The position numbers and the translations under genes are program-made. Under the pieces are notes generated by a model, which searched no databases, had not been told where the DNA came from, and saw only the letters and a list, made by a program, of their open reading frames with translations. Below are positions 2,874 to 37,607 of a stretch of DNA of 64,000 nucleotides, piece after piece. Each line of letters starts with the position of its first letter. The stretch's first letter is position 1. Source of the DNA: the human T2T-CHM13v2.0 reference genome, Homo sapiens; NCBI RefSeq assembly GCF_009914755.1, contig NC_060926.1; one strand, written 5' to 3'.

Positions 2874-2940
2874 CCCCTGCTCCATTCTCTTGGTCCAGGA
2901 GCTGCCCAGATCCAGATTCCCCTCCAGCCTGACTCTGTCC
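2874..2940 (-). CDS. ADGRF3: ADGRF3 common exon (GQSQAGGESGSGQLLDQENGAG)
   Basis: Acceptor TGTTCCAG|GGA (phase 0) and donor GGGG|GTGAGT (phase 1); 67 nt. Confidence 0.93.
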
Positions 2941-3388
2941 CTGGAACAGAACACAGAGGGGAGACCTCAAGTCCCTTCCAAAGGCACCCCAGGGGCCAGC
3001 CTGACTAGTCTCAGCCAGCATGACTCAGTCTCAACCAGCTCTTCTTTTTGCCAGGAGTCAAGTGTACACATCAGGAAGGGAAAGCAGGCTTCTGTTAGGG
3101 GGTGCCAGGGATGCAACCCCAGGAACCCTGCTATCCCACCCAAGACCAGGAACCAGGCACGCCCTGGGAAGTCAACATGCTTTGTTTAATTCCTTCCTGC
3201 GTTTACCTGTCCCTGGGCCTCTAGGCTAATTGAAATGGCTTGGTCTGGAGCTCCAGCAGCGGAGCTGGACATTGCTGGCTGGGGCCCAGGCGCTTGGGGA
3301 GTTTATTCCTTCTGTAGGATTTGACAGCAGGGTGAGCAGAAGGCAGCCTCTTTCCTCCGTCTTTGGTTCCTGTACATTATTTCCTCAC

Positions 3389-3501
3389 CAACTCCTCCTC
3401 TGTCAGGGTGAGGGTGGAGGTCTGGGCCCACATTGTCTGGCCCTTGGGCCATCGGCCAAAGCTAGAAGATAGGGGGATGGGGCAGGCAGGGAAGGGTCTG
3501 T
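3389..3501 (-). CDS. ADGRF3: ADGRF3 alternative exon (DRPFPACPIPLSSSFGRWPKGQTMWAQTSTLTLTEEEL)
   Basis: Acceptor CCTACCAG|AC and donor TTG|GTGAGG; 113 nt, phase 1-0. It bridges the long proximal exon 1 to the 2940 exon and matches the recalled long isoform. Confidence 0.8.
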
Positions 3502-3592
3502 CTGGTAGGGAGGTGAGGATGGAGCTGGCCCAAGGAGAGAGAACATGGCAGTCCTTCCTCCAGGAAATATGGAGGGGCTCACTGTGTCACAG
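3407..3592. repeat. Local duplication, copy B (contains the acceptor and most of exon 3389-3501)
   Basis: Offset 1374 bp from copy A. Confidence 0.95.
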
Positions 3593-3689
3593 ACCTGAGC
3601 CCTGTCTATATGCACCTGCGTGTGCGTGTGGATATCTATCCAAAACCAGATATTGATATAGATACGAATATGGATAAGACGTGAGTATA

Positions 3690-3940
3690 AGCTGGTCACA
3701 ATGGCACGTGCCTTTAGTCCCAGTTACTTGGGAGGCTGAGGTGGGAGGATCACTTGAGCCCAGGAGTTCAAGTCCAGCCTGGGCAACATGGTGAGAGCAT
3801 GTCTTAAAAAAGATATAGATATAGATAGATTTAGATACAGATACAGATATATATTTACATAAAGATAGATTTAAATTTAGCAATAGAGATAGATTTAGGC
3901 TTAGTGACATATAGACATAGCCATAGATATAGCTATCTAT
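3690..3940 (+). mobile_element. FLAM Alu monomer followed by an (ATAGAT)n-like low-complexity tail
   Basis: Monomeric Alu sequence at 3690-3812, then degenerate ATAGAT repeats. Confidence 0.8.
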
Positions 3941-4249
3941 TGAGGAGAACACAGATGGAAAGGCACCCTCTAGACTCTGATGTCTTTCCTCAGATTCTCT
4001 CCCATCCTCTAAGCCAATAGTTTCCAAATCTGCAAAATTTTTCTTTTTCTTTTTAAATGGCCAGCTTGACTGAATGAGACTTTATCCAAAGTACAGCAGG
4101 TATCATATGAGTTTACAGGGACTCAAATAAGGAAACAAGAGCTATCCCCCACACCCAGGAAAGTAAAACTGAGTTCTCAGAGATCTCATAACAAAGCATC
4201 CACTTTCCTTACACATTACTTCCTCTCCCCTCAGCCCTTTCCCCACTAC

Positions 4250-4427
4250 CTATCCTTTCATTCCATGCTTTGTCTCTCCCAATCAGGGGTCCCCATTGTC
4301 GCCTCTGCAGACCTTCCCTGGGTCTCACCCCAGTCTCACTTACAGGTTGGGATGCTTGGGCAACTGGTGACCCCAGCAGGGGAAGAGTTGTGGCCAGGAG
4401 CAGCAGTGGGGCAGCCGAACAGACCAT
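4250..4427 (-). CDS. ADGRF3: ADGRF3 proximal first coding exon with signal peptide (MVCSAAPLLLLATTLPLLGSPVAQASQP...); donors at 4344 and 4250
   Basis: GCCATGG Kozak context at 4427 and a hydrophobic signal peptide. Donor CCT|GTAAGT at 4344 (phase 0) and ATAG|GTAGTG at 4250 (phase 1). Confidence 0.92.
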
Positions 4428-4892
4428 GGCTCAGTGAAGCAGTCCCTACAAGCCCACGATGCAAATTTCCGCAAGGAAGAGCTGGCAGGGCAGTGTGCAG
4501 ATGGGATGGGAGGGAAGAGGGGAGGGAGCCAGGGCTGAATTTACAGAGGAAGCGCTACAGCCTGTGACTCTGAGTGAAATGGGAATCCAGGTCACTGTGG
4601 GGGCCACCTGGAGCCCACATGCCCCAGTGAGAATGGTGCCCAGGCTCTTCTTGGGCTCTGGACCAAAAGCTCCGAGAGCAGGAGAGGCTTAGGGGTTCGA
4701 AGTCACAACCAGCAACATGTCTATAAGCCAGGTTCAGTCATGTTCCCAAGGACCTGGGAAATCTGGATTGTTCTGAACTCCTCAAAGGCTGAATCACTGA
4801 TCAAACAGTCAAGGTTACAAATGAAAAATAAAGAAAAGATAAAAATATGAGAGCTGATTTTTACTCTAAAATAATTTCCAGATAGACTAGAA

Positions 4893-33510: not shown

Positions 33511-34800
33511 GGCGGGGAGAAGCTTATTATCTACCATATACCAGGTATAAGATTATCTATTACTTTCTAAGAATCATGCTTTAGGAGGGGAGATTAGACA
33601 TGTAGTAATAATACTGTGTTTGGCATATCTCGGGTCCCCAATAAATAGTTGTTAAACGAATGAACATAAAAGTATCTCAAAATAATCGCCCTTATTTCAG
33701 AGACCCAGAGAGACTGAAAGGCTCCCTGAAGTAGTGGTTTCCCATAACACAGAACTCATTTCATGTTGGGTCGATCATTTCCGAGCTTCGTAACTAAGTG
33801 ACTCTGGGCAGGCTGCCTAATCTGAAAAAGGGGATAATGCCTTTCACTTCAGTGTTGTTATGGGGTTGATAATGTATGTGAAGTTCTCCCCACAGAAGGC
33901 GCTCAATAAAAAGCAGCAACTATTATAAAATTTTATTAGTAGATACTCACTAGCCATTGATCTAGTGTTTTTTGTTTGTTTGTTTGTTTTACAATTAACT
34001 GGGCTCCAGTTATGTAAAACACCTCTTGCAAACGCATTTAAGGACTCGTCGAGACTGAGAGATCACTGCTTTTATCTGGTCGGGAGACACCAGCAATCTT
34101 AATTTGGAACGGTTTGATAGAGCGGAGTGCGATGAGGCGGTCCAAGGTTCCTAAGCAACATAGACCTGAGGGGCTTGTCTCCAATGTCCTTTCACCTGTC
34201 TTTCAAGTCCCTCTGCTGACCGCACAAAGACTCCCGTGGCCCCGGCAGCAGCTCGGCCTTCTCTACATCTAACCACGTTTACTAAATTTCTACGGCACGC
34301 AGCGCACCGCACCAGGAGCTGGGAGCGGCTCGCGGTACAGACCTCCTTCCTCTTTTACTTCGCTGCAGCGGGAGAACTAAGTCCTCTTACCTGAGGCACT
34401 GCTGAACTGGTTCGCAAGCAGTCACTCTACCCCCAAGACTAAAACGGTATACCCCAGATCACCACGCAAGTGCGGATACCACAGAAATCCCACCTTCCCC
34501 CGGGACCGGGAGCAAAGCCCGCTGGGAAATTGACCTTTCACCCCCTCTCTTGCCTTACCTCAGCTCACCAATTTTGACGCTAGCAAATGAAGCGACGAAG
34601 AGAGCTGGAAGGCGGGACTTAGTGTTGCCTGATCCACGCCGATTGGACAACAGCAGTGTCGGGGGACGGGCCGCTCGAGCGGGCTAGCAACCCCCCCTCG
34701 ATGGGCGGGGAGAAGCGTGGGCTGCGCTTGCGCACTGAGAGGCGGCCGAAGGGGCCGAGGCGGCTACGCGTGCGCGGTGGGCGGAGCGCGGCTCTCCTAC

Positions 34801-34914
34801 CTTCTCGGGCAGCCCAGTCTTTGCCATCCTTGCCCAGCCGGTGTGGTGCTTGTGTGTCACAGCCTTGTAGCCGGGAGTCGCTGCCGAGTGGGCGCTCAGT
34901 TTTCGGGTCGTCAT
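34801..34914 (-). CDS. ADGRF3: ADGRF3 distal alternative first coding exon (MTTRKLSAHSAATPGYKAVTHKHHTGWARMAKTGLPEK)
   Basis: GCCAGCC-ATG start, 38 codons, then donor AAG|GTAGGA in phase 0, compatible with the phase-0 acceptor at 2940. Matches my recollection of a GPR113 isoform N-terminus. Confidence 0.8.
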
Positions 34915-34969
34915 GGCTGGCTACGAATACGTGAGCCCGGAGCAGCTGGCTGGCTTTGATAAGTACAAG
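34913..34969 (+). CDS. SELENOI: SELENOI (EPT1) coding exon 1 (MAGYEYVSPEQLAGFDKYK)
   Basis: gtcATGG start, 57 nt, donor AAG|GTACCG; matches the recalled N-terminus. Confidence 0.97.
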
Positions 34970-37607
34970 GTACCGCGGGCCGGCGGATGCCCCTCTCCCT
35001 GCTCCCGGCCTCGCCCAGGCGGCTGAGGGGCCCGCGCGGCGCGGTCCGTGTCACCTTGTGCCGCGTGGCTCCGGGCGGGCTGGCGGGCGTTCCTCCGGAG
35101 GTCCTGCGGGTCCTGGGGATTGGGGGTCGGGGAGCGTGGGAGCATCCTAAGCCCGCCGCCCGTAGTCGGCACCCCCCGGGAGATTTCCTTTTCCTTAGGA
35201 GAGCGCTCAGTGATCATGGAGCGAGGGAATTCCCTTCCTATTTTTTTTAAACTTATTATTTTCGTAAGCCCCCGAAAGGATGGAGTTCCTTCTGTTGTGT
35301 CAATCGCCTTCATTTTAGTGAAGTTTCCACTCGCCTGTCATGCATACAACTTCGGAGGAGGAGATGATCGTTTGGCAGATGAGGCCCGGGAGGGGAGCGA
35401 CTTGCCGATGCCATCCTGCTGATGTCTCCACTTCTGCTCCCGGCAGGGACTTCCTAAGCGGCAGCTTGTGGCGCTAGGGCCACCAGATGAAAGGGAGGTG
35501 CACAGGAAGGAGCTGTGGAGTGGAAAGAGCGCGGGCTTTCGAGCACATACAAACCTGATTACAAAAGTCAGATTTCTTTATTTCGTCTTGGGCACGTCAT
35601 TTTAACCCCGCTCAGCCTCTCTTTTGTGTATGAAACTGAAAGTAATAGCTTCTGCTGTGCAAAATGATTAGAGGAATTTGTGAAGCGCTTGGCAACATAC
35701 TAGGACCCCAGTAAATAAATGCGGGTGGTTAACTTTCCTCCAAATCTGGTTCCCATCCGCAGTTCCTTTACCAATGAATGACTCTAACCATCCAGTCGAC
35801 CAAGCCTGAAATATGGGCTTTAACCCTTCATCCTTGTTGTTACCCGTTCATCTTCACATCTTAGCTTAAATATTGCTTCCTCAAAGAAGCCCTCCCTACG
35901 TGCCCCTTTCCCCCTTAAATGTGCGCTCTGTTCGTTTATGGAATTGCTGCTTTAGCGTGTCTCGCCATTAGAATATAATGCCCAACTCATTAGAGTTTTC
36001 TTGTGGACCATCATGGCTTAAGCACAGTGCTATGTGCATACTAGGCACCCAGTAAGCATTTGTGGAATGAATGAATAACTGAAAAAGTCATAATGGATTT
36101 TGTTTAACTCGAGTTAAAAAAAAAAAAAGCAAGGGTCCTTAGAAGGTCACATAGCATGTTTCTCTGCTTTCAAGCCGTATTGTGCCATACCATTCTGAAC
36201 CGAGGTGATGACTTGTCTTAACATTTTAAGTGGAAAGAGGGTCCAGAGCCTTCTTGGTAACTCGGGCCAGTGCTTTTCAACTTTCATTTTAGAAGGCTGT
36301 TAACCCAGATACCTCCTGTTTTGCCTTAAGCTCTACTCCCCTTTTGTTGTCTGTTCTGCAGGGTAAATATTGACATATAAAACATTTTCTTCCTTACTAG
36401 GGTCTGACTTTCTAAGTGCCAATAAAATAGCTATTTCAATGGGAGCAGTGTTTATAATAGGAAATCTCCTTTTTCTTATAAAGAATCTTCCCTAGATTTA
36501 TATTTTCAACTAAATAAGTGTCTTAATTTACTAGAAGTTTCGTGTAATTTTCTGTTCTGATCTTTCCCCCTTTTTTATTATATAAGTTCCTGTATCTGAC
36601 AGCAGATGACTTCCTATCATCCTGGAAAACAAAGGTCGATTTAGCAAGCGTCCAATGTTCACTAAAATAGTTTGTTGATATCATTTTAGTTATAATGAGG
36701 CTTCCTTGGGGAAAAAAAAGCACACATTTATAACCTAAATATTCTTCTATTGCAATTACTCAATACTGCATTTATATTAAAATTATGAATCCAGTGGTAT
36801 CCAAAGGAAAAATCCATGGGATCAGTTTTGCTTGAACACAAATCTCACAGATCTTTTTTTCTTATCGTTGCGTTCCCCTTATGTTGTCTTCAGATAGTAA
36901 GCGCTTTATAAATGCTTATTTTAAAAAGTCTTTTTTCCCCATAAATGGGTAAAGATTGAAAACACTCAAAAGATATTTTGTATTCCCTCATGTGATGCTT
37001 TATAAGAGGGATGTAAAGAAGAACTGACACTACAAAAGCAGTTGGTGGAAAAATTACTTTTGAAGTAGTTTAATTTATCTTCCCTAGAGGTATATCTGAG
37101 AGCTACAGTTGGAAACCTGGCAGATATACAGAATAACTGCTGAAAGGGGTGCACACGGGGAGTGGAAATTAGGTTTCTGAAGCAGGAAACTATAAGACAA
37201 TTGATTTTTGGTATGGAAGAGCGTGGGATGGATTCTGTGTTATGTATTGACACTTGCATTCGCTATTGTGTTACTTAACGCAATTGTATTAAACAGTTAG
37301 TTGACTATTAGTTGAATGTCTACTTTCTCTTTTAGGACGTGAGCTTTAAGAGGGCAGGCCCTATGGCTGACTTTTTTTTTTTTTTCTTTAATAACATGAC
37401 TGAGGTCTAGCACAGTACCATGAACAGAGTAAGTGCTAAACAAATATTGAAGGAATGAGAATGTAAAAGAATCAACCATTTTGGAAGTATGGTTAAAAAA
37501 AAAAAAGGAGCTCTATGTCTGGATATTGAAAGGGTGCTTTTGTATTTTAAATGTGAAGATATCAGGTTTAACTGCCATTGTTCTCTGTTGCTTATTAACT
37601 AAGGTAA

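What the first reader, a model, noticed from the sequence alone, without database searches (positions are those of the whole stretch)
34905..34921. Two genes start from one CATG palindrome, each supplying the other's Kozak context
Seen: the SELENOI ATG (+, 34913-34915) and the distal ADGRF3 ATG (-, 34914-34912) share the central AT of one CATG. On the plus strand the context is gtcgtcATGG (G at -3 and +4), whose upstream bases are the antisense of ADGRF3 codons 1-3. On the minus strand it is GCCAGCCATGA (G at -3), formed by the antisense of SELENOI codons 1-3. Each gene's 5'UTR is therefore antisense to the other's first coding exon. Inference: conservation of the SELENOI N-terminus created a ready-made antisense start that ADGRF3 captured, and a single start-loss variant in the shared AT would hit both genes. 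The exon may already be annotated, but I know of no description of this interlock.
Basis: partly seen in the sequence, partly recalled or inferred. Interest (0 to 1): 0.85.

Follow-up and report, generated by a model that had tools for sequence, protein, structure and literature searches.

The report
Shared CATG start of SELENOI and ADGRF3
Two human genes on opposite strands are annotated as starting translation from the same four bases, but this looks like a by-product of antisense transcription at the SELENOI promoter and of the rule used to call coding starts, not a designed interlock.

Summary
CATG at 34912-34915 holds the SELENOI ATG (+, 34913-34915) and the ATG of the distal ADGRF3 first exon (-, 34914-34912). 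The two coding regions overlap by 2 nt. Both contexts score as efficient in a published table of initiation sites (118 and 106; reference 100).

The functional reading is not supported.
- Geometry is cheap. About 29% of all ATGs in the window sit in a CATG. The antisense -1, -2 and -3 bases are fixed by the sense G of ATG, +4 and +5. The 38-codon frame stays open in 42% of shuffles.
- The annotated ADGRF3 leader is 555 nt with six upstream ATGs. The first scores 128. An in-frame 130-codon upstream ORF stops 6 nt before the ATG.
- The 38-residue N-terminus has no hydrophobic core. It replaces the signal-peptide exon (4344-4480) of a receptor with about 700 extracellular residues.
- NM_001321971.2 reaches at most 0.17 TPM across 48 tissue groups.
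- Proteins with this N-terminus were found only in apes. In the siamang model a change that is silent in SELENOI removes the upstream stop, and the predicted start moves 77 codons upstream.

Best reading: a low-level antisense transcript from the SELENOI CpG island, spliced into ADGRF3, with a start assigned by rule. It is already in RefSeq and ordinary.

The parts
34912..34915 (.). CATG palindrome that holds both annotated start codons. The coding overlap is 34913-34914.
34823..34912 (+). SELENOI 5'UTR, 90 nt with no upstream ATG. It is antisense to the ADGRF3 distal coding segment.
   Evidence: hub table; (0 ATG in 90 nt)
34913..34969 (+). SELENOI exon 1 coding part, 19 codons, followed by donor GTACCG. 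Initiation-site score 118.
   Evidence: gene identity supported by a CDP-OH_P_transf match in exon 5
34801..34914 (-). ADGRF3 distal first-exon coding segment of 38 codons. It has no hydrophobic core and no Pfam match. Initiation-site score 106.
34915..35469 (-). Annotated 555-nt leader of the ADGRF3 distal exon. It has six upstream ATGs at 35414, 35345, 35341, 35313, 35217 and 35145.
   Evidence: scores 128, 23, 59, 90, 55, 87
34921..34923 (-). In-frame TAG that closes the upstream ORFs 6 nt before the ATG and so fixes the annotated start. Base 34921 is the wobble base of SELENOI Gly3.
34825..34827 (-). Second in-frame ATG (Met30 of the distal segment). Initiation-site score 107.
34795..34800 (-). 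Donor GTAGGA of the distal exon. If it is not used, the frame stops at 34686-34684 after 76 codons.
2874..2940 (-). ADGRF3 exon that receives the distal exon. Acceptor TTCCAG; the frame is continuous.
4344..4480 (-). Proximal ADGRF3 exon encoding MVCSAAPLLLLATTLPLLGSPVAQASQP, a signal-peptide-like start. The distal exon replaces it.
   Evidence: highest 9-residue Kyte-Doolittle hydropathy 2.14 against 0.23
34500..35100 (.). CpG island around the SELENOI start (GC 0.60-0.74, CpG observed/expected 0.75-1.01).

Best explanation
The SELENOI CpG-island promoter is transcribed at a low level on the opposite strand. Some of these antisense transcripts start inside SELENOI intron 1 (annotated 5' end 35469) and run back through SELENOI exon 1. 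They use a donor at 34800 and splice about 32 kb downstream into ADGRF3 exon 2874-2940, skipping the proximal exon that encodes the receptor's signal peptide. Annotation then places the coding start at the first ATG of the longest open frame. That frame is bounded upstream by a TAG at 34923-34921, so the first ATG is the antisense reading of SELENOI's own C-ATG. The good context on both strands follows from base-pairing. The antisense -1 base is the complement of the sense G of ATG, the -2 base of the sense +4 G, and the -3 base of the sense +5 C. The shared start is therefore real in the annotation but is most likely not a working ADGRF3 initiation site. Shown here: the geometry, upstream ATGs, hydropathy, transcript levels and the shift of the start in the siamang model. 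Inferred: the promoter-antisense origin and the lack of translation.
For: 1) The leader is 555 nt with six upstream ATGs. Their published initiation-site scores are 128, 23, 59, 90, 55 and 87, against 106 for the annotated ATG (scale). The in-frame upstream ORFs from 35313, 35217 and 35145 end 6 nt before the ATG. SELENOI's 90-nt leader has none.
2) The distal N-terminus has a highest 9-residue Kyte-Doolittle (KD) hydropathy of 0.23, against 2.14 for the proximal exon's start. In the orangutan protein with the distal N-terminus, the ADGRF3_N, Ig, HRM, GAIN and GPS domains occupy residues 110-693, ahead of 7tm_2 at 705-951. About 700 residues would therefore have to cross the membrane without a signal peptide.
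3) In PMC11039983, supplement sheet ADGRF3 (24 transcript rows, 48 tissue groups), NM_001321971.2 has a highest mean of 0.169 TPM (kidney) and is 0 in 26 of 48 groups. NM_153835.4 never exceeds 0.002 TPM. In kidney, where the gene total is highest (8.32 TPM), the multi-exon transcripts from the distal start sum to 3.2%. The most abundant product of the distal start is a 2-exon transcript (up to 1.62 TPM).
4) Only 5 proteins carry this N-terminus (5 of 5 candidates), all from apes. The siamang model starts 77 codons upstream because the human TAG is Tyr there. The change falls on the wobble base of SELENOI Gly3, so it is silent in SELENOI.
5) Human and siamang differ at 6 of 38 residues in the distal segment, 6 of 58 in the antisense-of-intron reading and 4 of 70 in the next ADGRF3 exons.
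6) Chance is ample: 284 of 996 ATGs lie in a CATG, and 8355 of 20000 shuffles keep the frame open. The region is a CpG island.
Against: The context of the minus ATG is efficient (106, above the 100 reference). The donor and frame into exon 2874-2940 are intact. Six of 24 assembled ADGRF3 transcripts start at the distal site. One of them, XM_017003506.2 (14 exons, same ends), is detected in 46 of 48 tissue groups at up to 0.60 TPM and is the largest ADGRF3 fraction in many low-expressing tissues, for example 83.5% in esophagus. Its internal exons were not visible to me, so it may use the same ATG. Real 5' ends may lie closer to 34914 than the annotated 35469, which would remove some or all of the upstream ATGs. 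PMC11039983 notes that a missing signal peptide does not always prevent membrane insertion (mouse ADGRD1). The rate comparisons are not significant (Fisher p = 0.16, 0.53 and 0.44). The first 16 residues are identical in human, orangutan and siamang. The absence of non-ape hits is weak evidence, as the tool itself states.
Confidence: 0.75

Rival explanations
1. One reading: the distal ATG is a working start. ADGRF3 makes an isoform with a 38-residue alternative N-terminus from the same CATG as SELENOI, so the two genes are coupled at their start codons.
For: RefSeq annotates it (hub table). The context scores 106. The splice donor and frame are intact. Transcripts from the distal start are found in most tissues. 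The same N-terminus is predicted in orangutan and siamang, with the first 16 residues identical.
Against: There are six upstream ATGs, including one scoring 128 and an in-frame 130-codon ORF ending 6 nt upstream. There is no signal peptide ahead of about 700 extracellular residues. The named transcript reaches at most 0.17 TPM. The start call shifts in the siamang model. Divergence in the 38 residues is no lower than in the antisense-of-intron reading (not significant).
Confidence: 0.12
2. The antisense transcript matters as RNA or through the act of transcription, and its coding potential is irrelevant. Transcription through SELENOI exon 1, or a 147-nt duplex covering the SELENOI 5'UTR and start codon, tunes SELENOI output.
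For: All of SELENOI exon 1 (34823-34969) lies inside the ADGRF3 distal exon (34801-35469), per the hub table. Transcriptional interference and RNA duplexes are the mechanisms discussed for head-to-head overlaps in the review PMC9917990 (passages). The main product of the distal start is a 2-exon transcript that does not reach the ADGRF3 body.
Against: Antisense levels are about 0.1-1.6 TPM, low for a stoichiometric effect on a housekeeping mRNA. I tested nothing on SELENOI expression. No paper linking the two genes functionally was found.
Confidence: 0.1

Closest known systems
Head-to-head (divergent) overlapping protein-coding gene pairs in human, e.g. DLG4/VLCAD
   Same: The genes are on opposite strands and overlap at their 5' ends through a distal alternative start site. 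One gene's 5'UTR covers the other's 5'UTR and first coding bases. The review PMC9917990 (passages) cites 473 and 582 such human pairs and notes that DLG4's 5'UTR covers 62 bp of VLCAD coding sequence. Sanna et al. (PMC2335118, passages) count 157 divergent overlaps and 51 pairs with overlapping coding regions.
   Different: Here the two annotated coding regions meet exactly at the start codons, with a 2-nt overlap. I found no description of this for the pair.
Bidirectional or antisense transcription at CpG-island promoters (general knowledge, recalled)
   Same: There is a CpG island. Minus-strand starts lie within 1 kb of the SELENOI start (hub table: exons 34391-34491 and 34801-35469). Abundance is low and broad across tissues.
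   Different: Some of these transcripts are spliced into a neighbouring protein-coding gene 32 kb away and are therefore filed as its mRNA isoforms.
N-terminally variant adhesion GPCR isoforms predicted from the longest ORF
   Same: PMC11039983 (passages) reports many adhesion GPCR variants whose ORFs lack signal peptides. It states that these are predictions from the longest ORF that still need testing.
   Different: That paper lists ADGRF3 with 24 variants and two signal peptides and flags no chimeric transcript. It does not discuss the SELENOI overlap in the passages and sheets I saw.

Membership tests
Head-to-head overlapping protein-coding gene pair | Two protein-coding genes on opposite strands whose transcribed 5' ends overlap | tested here: met
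   Hub table spans. Sequence and splice sites checked. SELENOI exon 1 (34823-34969) lies inside ADGRF3 exon 34801-35469.
Head-to-head overlapping protein-coding gene pair | The overlap depends on use of a distal alternative start site | tested here: met
   Proximal ADGRF3 first exons lie at 3207-4796 (hub table). Only 6 of 24 assembled transcripts use the distal start.
Antisense dual-coding region (two proteins read from both strands of one stretch) | A substantial stretch is translated on both strands | tested here: not met
   The annotated coding regions share only 34913-34914, which is 2 nt.
Promoter-associated antisense transcript of a CpG-island promoter | CpG island at the sense start site | tested here: met
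   GC 0.60-0.74 and CpG observed/expected 0.75-1.01 over about 34500-35100.
Promoter-associated antisense transcript of a CpG-island promoter | Low abundance and tissue breadth that follow the host promoter, not the downstream gene | tested here: inconclusive
   XM_017003506.2 is above zero in 46 of 48 tissue groups but never above 0.60 TPM. The proximal transcripts peak in kidney. SELENOI levels were not examined.
Functional alternative N-terminal isoform of an adhesion GPCR | A signal peptide or other means to export the large N-terminal region | tested here: not met
   Highest 9-residue hydropathy is 0.23, against 2.14 for the proximal exon. About 700 residues of extracellular domains precede 7tm_2. 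No signal-peptide predictor was available.
Functional alternative N-terminal isoform of an adhesion GPCR | A start codon that scanning ribosomes can reach | tested here: not met
   Six upstream ATGs lie in the annotated leader, with scores 128, 23, 59, 90, 55 and 87. This holds for the annotated 5' end only.
Functional alternative N-terminal isoform of an adhesion GPCR | The start and frame are conserved under purifying selection | tested here: inconclusive
   Found only in three ape genera. The siamang start is shifted. Differences of 3 of 38 and 6 of 38 are not significantly different from the flanking comparisons. No genome alignment was available.
Functional alternative N-terminal isoform of an adhesion GPCR | Evidence of translation (initiation-site profiling, peptides) | not testable with these tools
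   No ribosome-profiling or proteomics data can be reached here.

The most novel reading that the evidence does not exclude
The shared CATG is a true double start. In some cell type, shorter minus-strand transcripts that begin just upstream of 34914 are translated into an ADGRF3 form without a signal peptide. Alternatively, the perfectly complementary 5' ends of the two mRNAs mask each other's start codons, so that SELENOI and ADGRF3 outputs are reciprocally coupled. A single variant at 34913 or 34914 would then remove both proteins.
Probability: 0.1. Interest if true: 0.45.

Novelty: already known. Interest (0 to 1): 0.15.

Why it matters
The main value is practical.
- Variant annotation tools will call a change at 34913 or 34914 'start lost' in two genes. 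The evidence here says only the SELENOI consequence should be weighted. SELENOI is a disease gene for spastic paraplegia (recalled, not checked here).
- The case shows how a first-ATG-of-longest-ORF rule, applied to a promoter-antisense transcript, yields a protein isoform that probably does not exist. The siamang model shows the rule moving the start by 77 codons after one change that is silent in SELENOI.
- Any start of the form C-ATG-G-C carries a good antisense start by base-pairing alone. Shared-CATG starts should therefore recur wherever head-to-head transcripts overlap.

Tried and rejected
- Six literature searches found nothing on this interlock. ADGRF3+SELENOI gave 3 papers, all livestock GWAS gene lists. 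GPR113+EPT1 gave 2 unrelated papers. The gene names with 'bidirectional promoter' or 'head-to-head' gave 1 unrelated paper. General searches on head-to-head start-codon overlap (10 papers), on Kozak/palindrome/antisense (91 papers, 15 listed) and on CCATGG/Kozak/opposite strand (13 papers, 12 listed) showed no title on shared start codons. I judged those lists from titles and abstract openings only.
- I looked in the PMC11039983 supplement for exon coordinates of XM_017003506.2 and found none. I cannot say which distal-start transcripts other than NM_001321971.2 use the 34800 donor.
- Evolutionary-rate comparisons between the 38 codons and flanking readings gave no significant difference.
- I considered true antisense dual coding and rejected it, because the coding overlap is 2 nt.
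- I considered mapping GRCh38 coordinates from the supplement onto the window for the 2-exon transcripts. I dropped it because the spacing between the proximal and distal starts differs between the two coordinate sets.

Full report
**What is in the sequence.** The plus strand at 34905-34921 reads GGGTCGTCATGGCTGGC.
- The SELENOI ATG is at 34913-34915, with G at -3 and G at +4. It opens MAGYEYVSPEQLAGFDKYK and is followed by donor GTACCG at 34970.
- On the minus strand the ATG is at 34914-34912, in the context GCCAGCCATGA. It opens 38 codons that end at 34801 and is followed by donor GTAGGA.
- The frame continues without a stop into ADGRF3 exon 2874-2940, behind acceptor TTCCAG.
- Both starts equal the RefSeq coding starts in the hub table. 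The two coding regions share exactly two bases, 34913-34914.
- SELENOI's identity is consistent with a CDP-OH_P_transf match in its fifth exon (E 8.5e-07).

**How much of this needs explaining.** Very little of the geometry does.
- Any ATG preceded by C has an ATG on the other strand shifted by one base. In this window that holds for 284 of 996 plus-strand ATGs and 284 of 977 minus-strand ATGs.
- The antisense context is fixed by base-pairing. Antisense -1 is the complement of the G of the sense ATG. Antisense -2 is the complement of sense +4, and antisense -3 of sense +5.
- A start of the form C-ATG-G-C therefore always gives G-C-C-ATG on the other strand. The 8-mer GCCATGGC is its own reverse complement.
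- From memory, not from any call: C at -1, G at +4 and an alanine GCN second codon are all among the commonest features of human starts.
- The 38-codon open frame is also unremarkable in GC-rich DNA. 8355 of 20000 shuffles of the 37 codons after the ATG have no stop.

**Are the contexts good?** Yes. In Supplementary Table S2 of Noderer et al. 2014 (PMC4299517) the scale sets GCCACCAUGGG to 100 and spans about 12-fold (passages). SELENOI's site scores 118 (110-127) and the ADGRF3 distal site scores 106 (98-116).

**Can a ribosome reach the minus ATG?** The annotated leader runs from 35469 to 34915. It is 555 nt long and holds six upstream ATGs.

| Upstream ATG | ORF | Score |
|---|---|---|
| 35414 | 34 codons | 128 |
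| 35345 | 11 codons | 23 |
| 35341 | 8 codons | 59 |
| 35313 | in frame, 130 codons | 90 |
| 35217 | in frame | 55 |
| 35145 | in frame | 87 |

- The three in-frame ORFs all end at the TAG at 34923-34921, six bases before the annotated ATG.
- A scanning ribosome would mostly initiate earlier. Re-initiation six bases after a long ORF is not expected (established scanning model, inference).
- SELENOI's 90-nt leader has no ATG at all.
- If the 34800 donor is skipped, as in the alternative first exon 34559-35469 of the hub table, the frame from 34914 stops at 34686-34684 after 76 codons.

**What protein would result?**
- The proximal exon 4344-4480 encodes MVCSAAPLLLLATTLPLLGSPVAQASQP. Its highest 9-residue Kyte-Doolittle value is 2.14, which is signal-peptide-like.
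- The distal 38 residues peak at 0.23 and match no Pfam family.
- In the orangutan protein that carries the distal N-terminus (P0004, 1007 aa), the ADGRF3_N, Ig, HRM, GAIN and GPS domains lie at residues 110-693, ahead of 7tm_2 at 705-951. About 700 residues would have to be exported without a signal peptide.
- Against this, PMC11039983 remarks that a missing signal peptide does not always block membrane insertion (passage). No signal-peptide predictor was available to me.

**Transcript levels.** I read the ADGRF3 sheet of the supplement of PMC11039983, parts 35-37. It has 24 transcript rows and 48 tissue groups.
- Six of the 24 rows start at the distal site.
- NM_001321971.2 has a highest mean of 0.169 TPM (kidney, sd 0.393) and is 0 in 26 of 48 groups.
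- NM_153835.4 and NR_135916.2 are almost always 0.
- XM_017003506.2 (14 exons, same ends) is above 0 in 46 of 48 groups, up to 0.604 TPM (trachea). It is the largest share of the gene in many tissues where the gene total is under 1 TPM, for example 83.5% in esophagus.
- The most abundant product of the distal start is a 2-exon transcript, NSTRG.43755.24, at up to 1.62 TPM.
- In kidney the gene total peaks at 8.32 TPM. There the multi-exon distal-start transcripts add up to 3.2%.
- The pattern is a thin, broad background from the distal start with tissue-specific output from the proximal start. That fits a by-product of a housekeeping promoter (inference).
- The sheet gives no exon coordinates. 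I therefore cannot tell whether XM_017003506.2 uses the 34800 donor. This is the main open point against my reading.

**Relatives.** A 40-residue query, made of the 38 codons plus two intronic codons and searched against longer proteins, found 5 of 5 candidates. These were one human partial protein, three from Pongo abelii and one from Symphalangus syndactylus. The tool warns that finding no others is weak evidence.
- Orangutan differs from human at 3 of 38 residues. In the following exons it differs at 10 of 200 aligned residues plus 3 gap columns.
- Siamang differs at 6 of 38. It differs at 4 of 70 in the following exons and at 6 of 58 in the reading that is antisense to SELENOI intron 1.
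- None of these contrasts is significant (p = 0.44, 0.16 and 0.53).
- The first 16 residues are identical in the three species.
- The siamang model does not start at the shared CATG. It starts 77 codons upstream, at the counterpart of human 35145, because the human TAG is a tyrosine codon there.
- The base concerned, 34921, is the third base of SELENOI's Gly3 codon GGC. The change is therefore silent in SELENOI (inference from the protein; I did not see the siamang DNA).
- So one change that is silent in SELENOI moves the predicted ADGRF3 start. This is the behaviour expected of a rule-based start call.

**Setting.** The region 34500-35100 is a CpG island (GC 0.60-0.74, CpG observed/expected 0.75-1.01). 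The hub table also lists a minus-strand first exon at 34391-34491, upstream of the SELENOI start. The promoter thus fires both ways.

**Comparison with what is known.**
- Head-to-head overlaps of protein-coding genes through distal start sites are well described. The review PMC9917990 (passages) cites 473 and 582 human pairs. It also cites DLG4/VLCAD, where one 5'UTR covers 62 bp of the other gene's coding sequence.
- Sanna et al. (PMC2335118, passages) count 157 divergent overlaps and 51 pairs with overlapping coding regions.
- PMC11039983 states that its truncated adhesion-GPCR isoforms are longest-ORF predictions that need testing.
- I found no paper on this particular pair.

**Verdict.**
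- The feature is real as annotated, already in RefSeq, and a member of a known class.
- The 'interlock' is best read as geometry plus an annotation rule (confidence 0.75).
- A truly translated distal start gets about 0.12.
- An RNA-level or transcription-level effect on SELENOI gets about 0.10.
- Interest is low. The practical lesson concerns how to weigh 'start lost' calls at 34913-34914.

Noticed in passing
window 34910: The SNP table of PMC4299517 lists EPT1 NM_033505 with its initiation site changed at -3 (GTCGTC to GTCATC, effect 0.02). On the minus strand that base is the middle of ADGRF3 distal codon 2 (ACG). The variant would turn codon 2 into a second ATG (inference).
   Followed up: no
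window 4796 to 35469: The distance between the proximal and distal ADGRF3 starts is 30,673 bp in this T2T window (hub table). It is 26,935 bp in the GRCh38 coordinates of the PMC11039983 supplement (26319854 to 26346789). Either the intron differs by about 3.7 kb between assemblies or the two proximal starts are not the same site.
   Followed up: no
window 3207-3461, minus strand: This alternative exon holds another in-frame ATG, opening MSSSAAGAPDQAISISLEAQGQ, that reads into exon 2874-2940. It also has no hydrophobic start.
   Followed up: no
P0003 (Pongo abelii, 120 aa): An orangutan 'ADGRF3 isoform 2' carries the same 38-residue start followed by an unrelated 82-residue tail. In that model the distal exon is spliced to something other than the receptor frame.
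   Followed up: no
window 34801-35469, minus strand: The commonest product of the distal start in the PMC11039983 supplement is a 2-exon transcript (NSTRG.43755.24). It reaches 1.62 TPM in prostate and 1.49 TPM in kidney and ends about 7 kb downstream, so it never reaches the ADGRF3 body.
   Followed up: partly
window 34825-34827, minus strand: Met30 of the distal segment has A at -3 and G at +4 and scores 107, the same as the annotated ATG. Even a ribosome that reached this exon would have two near-equal in-frame starts.
   Followed up: partly
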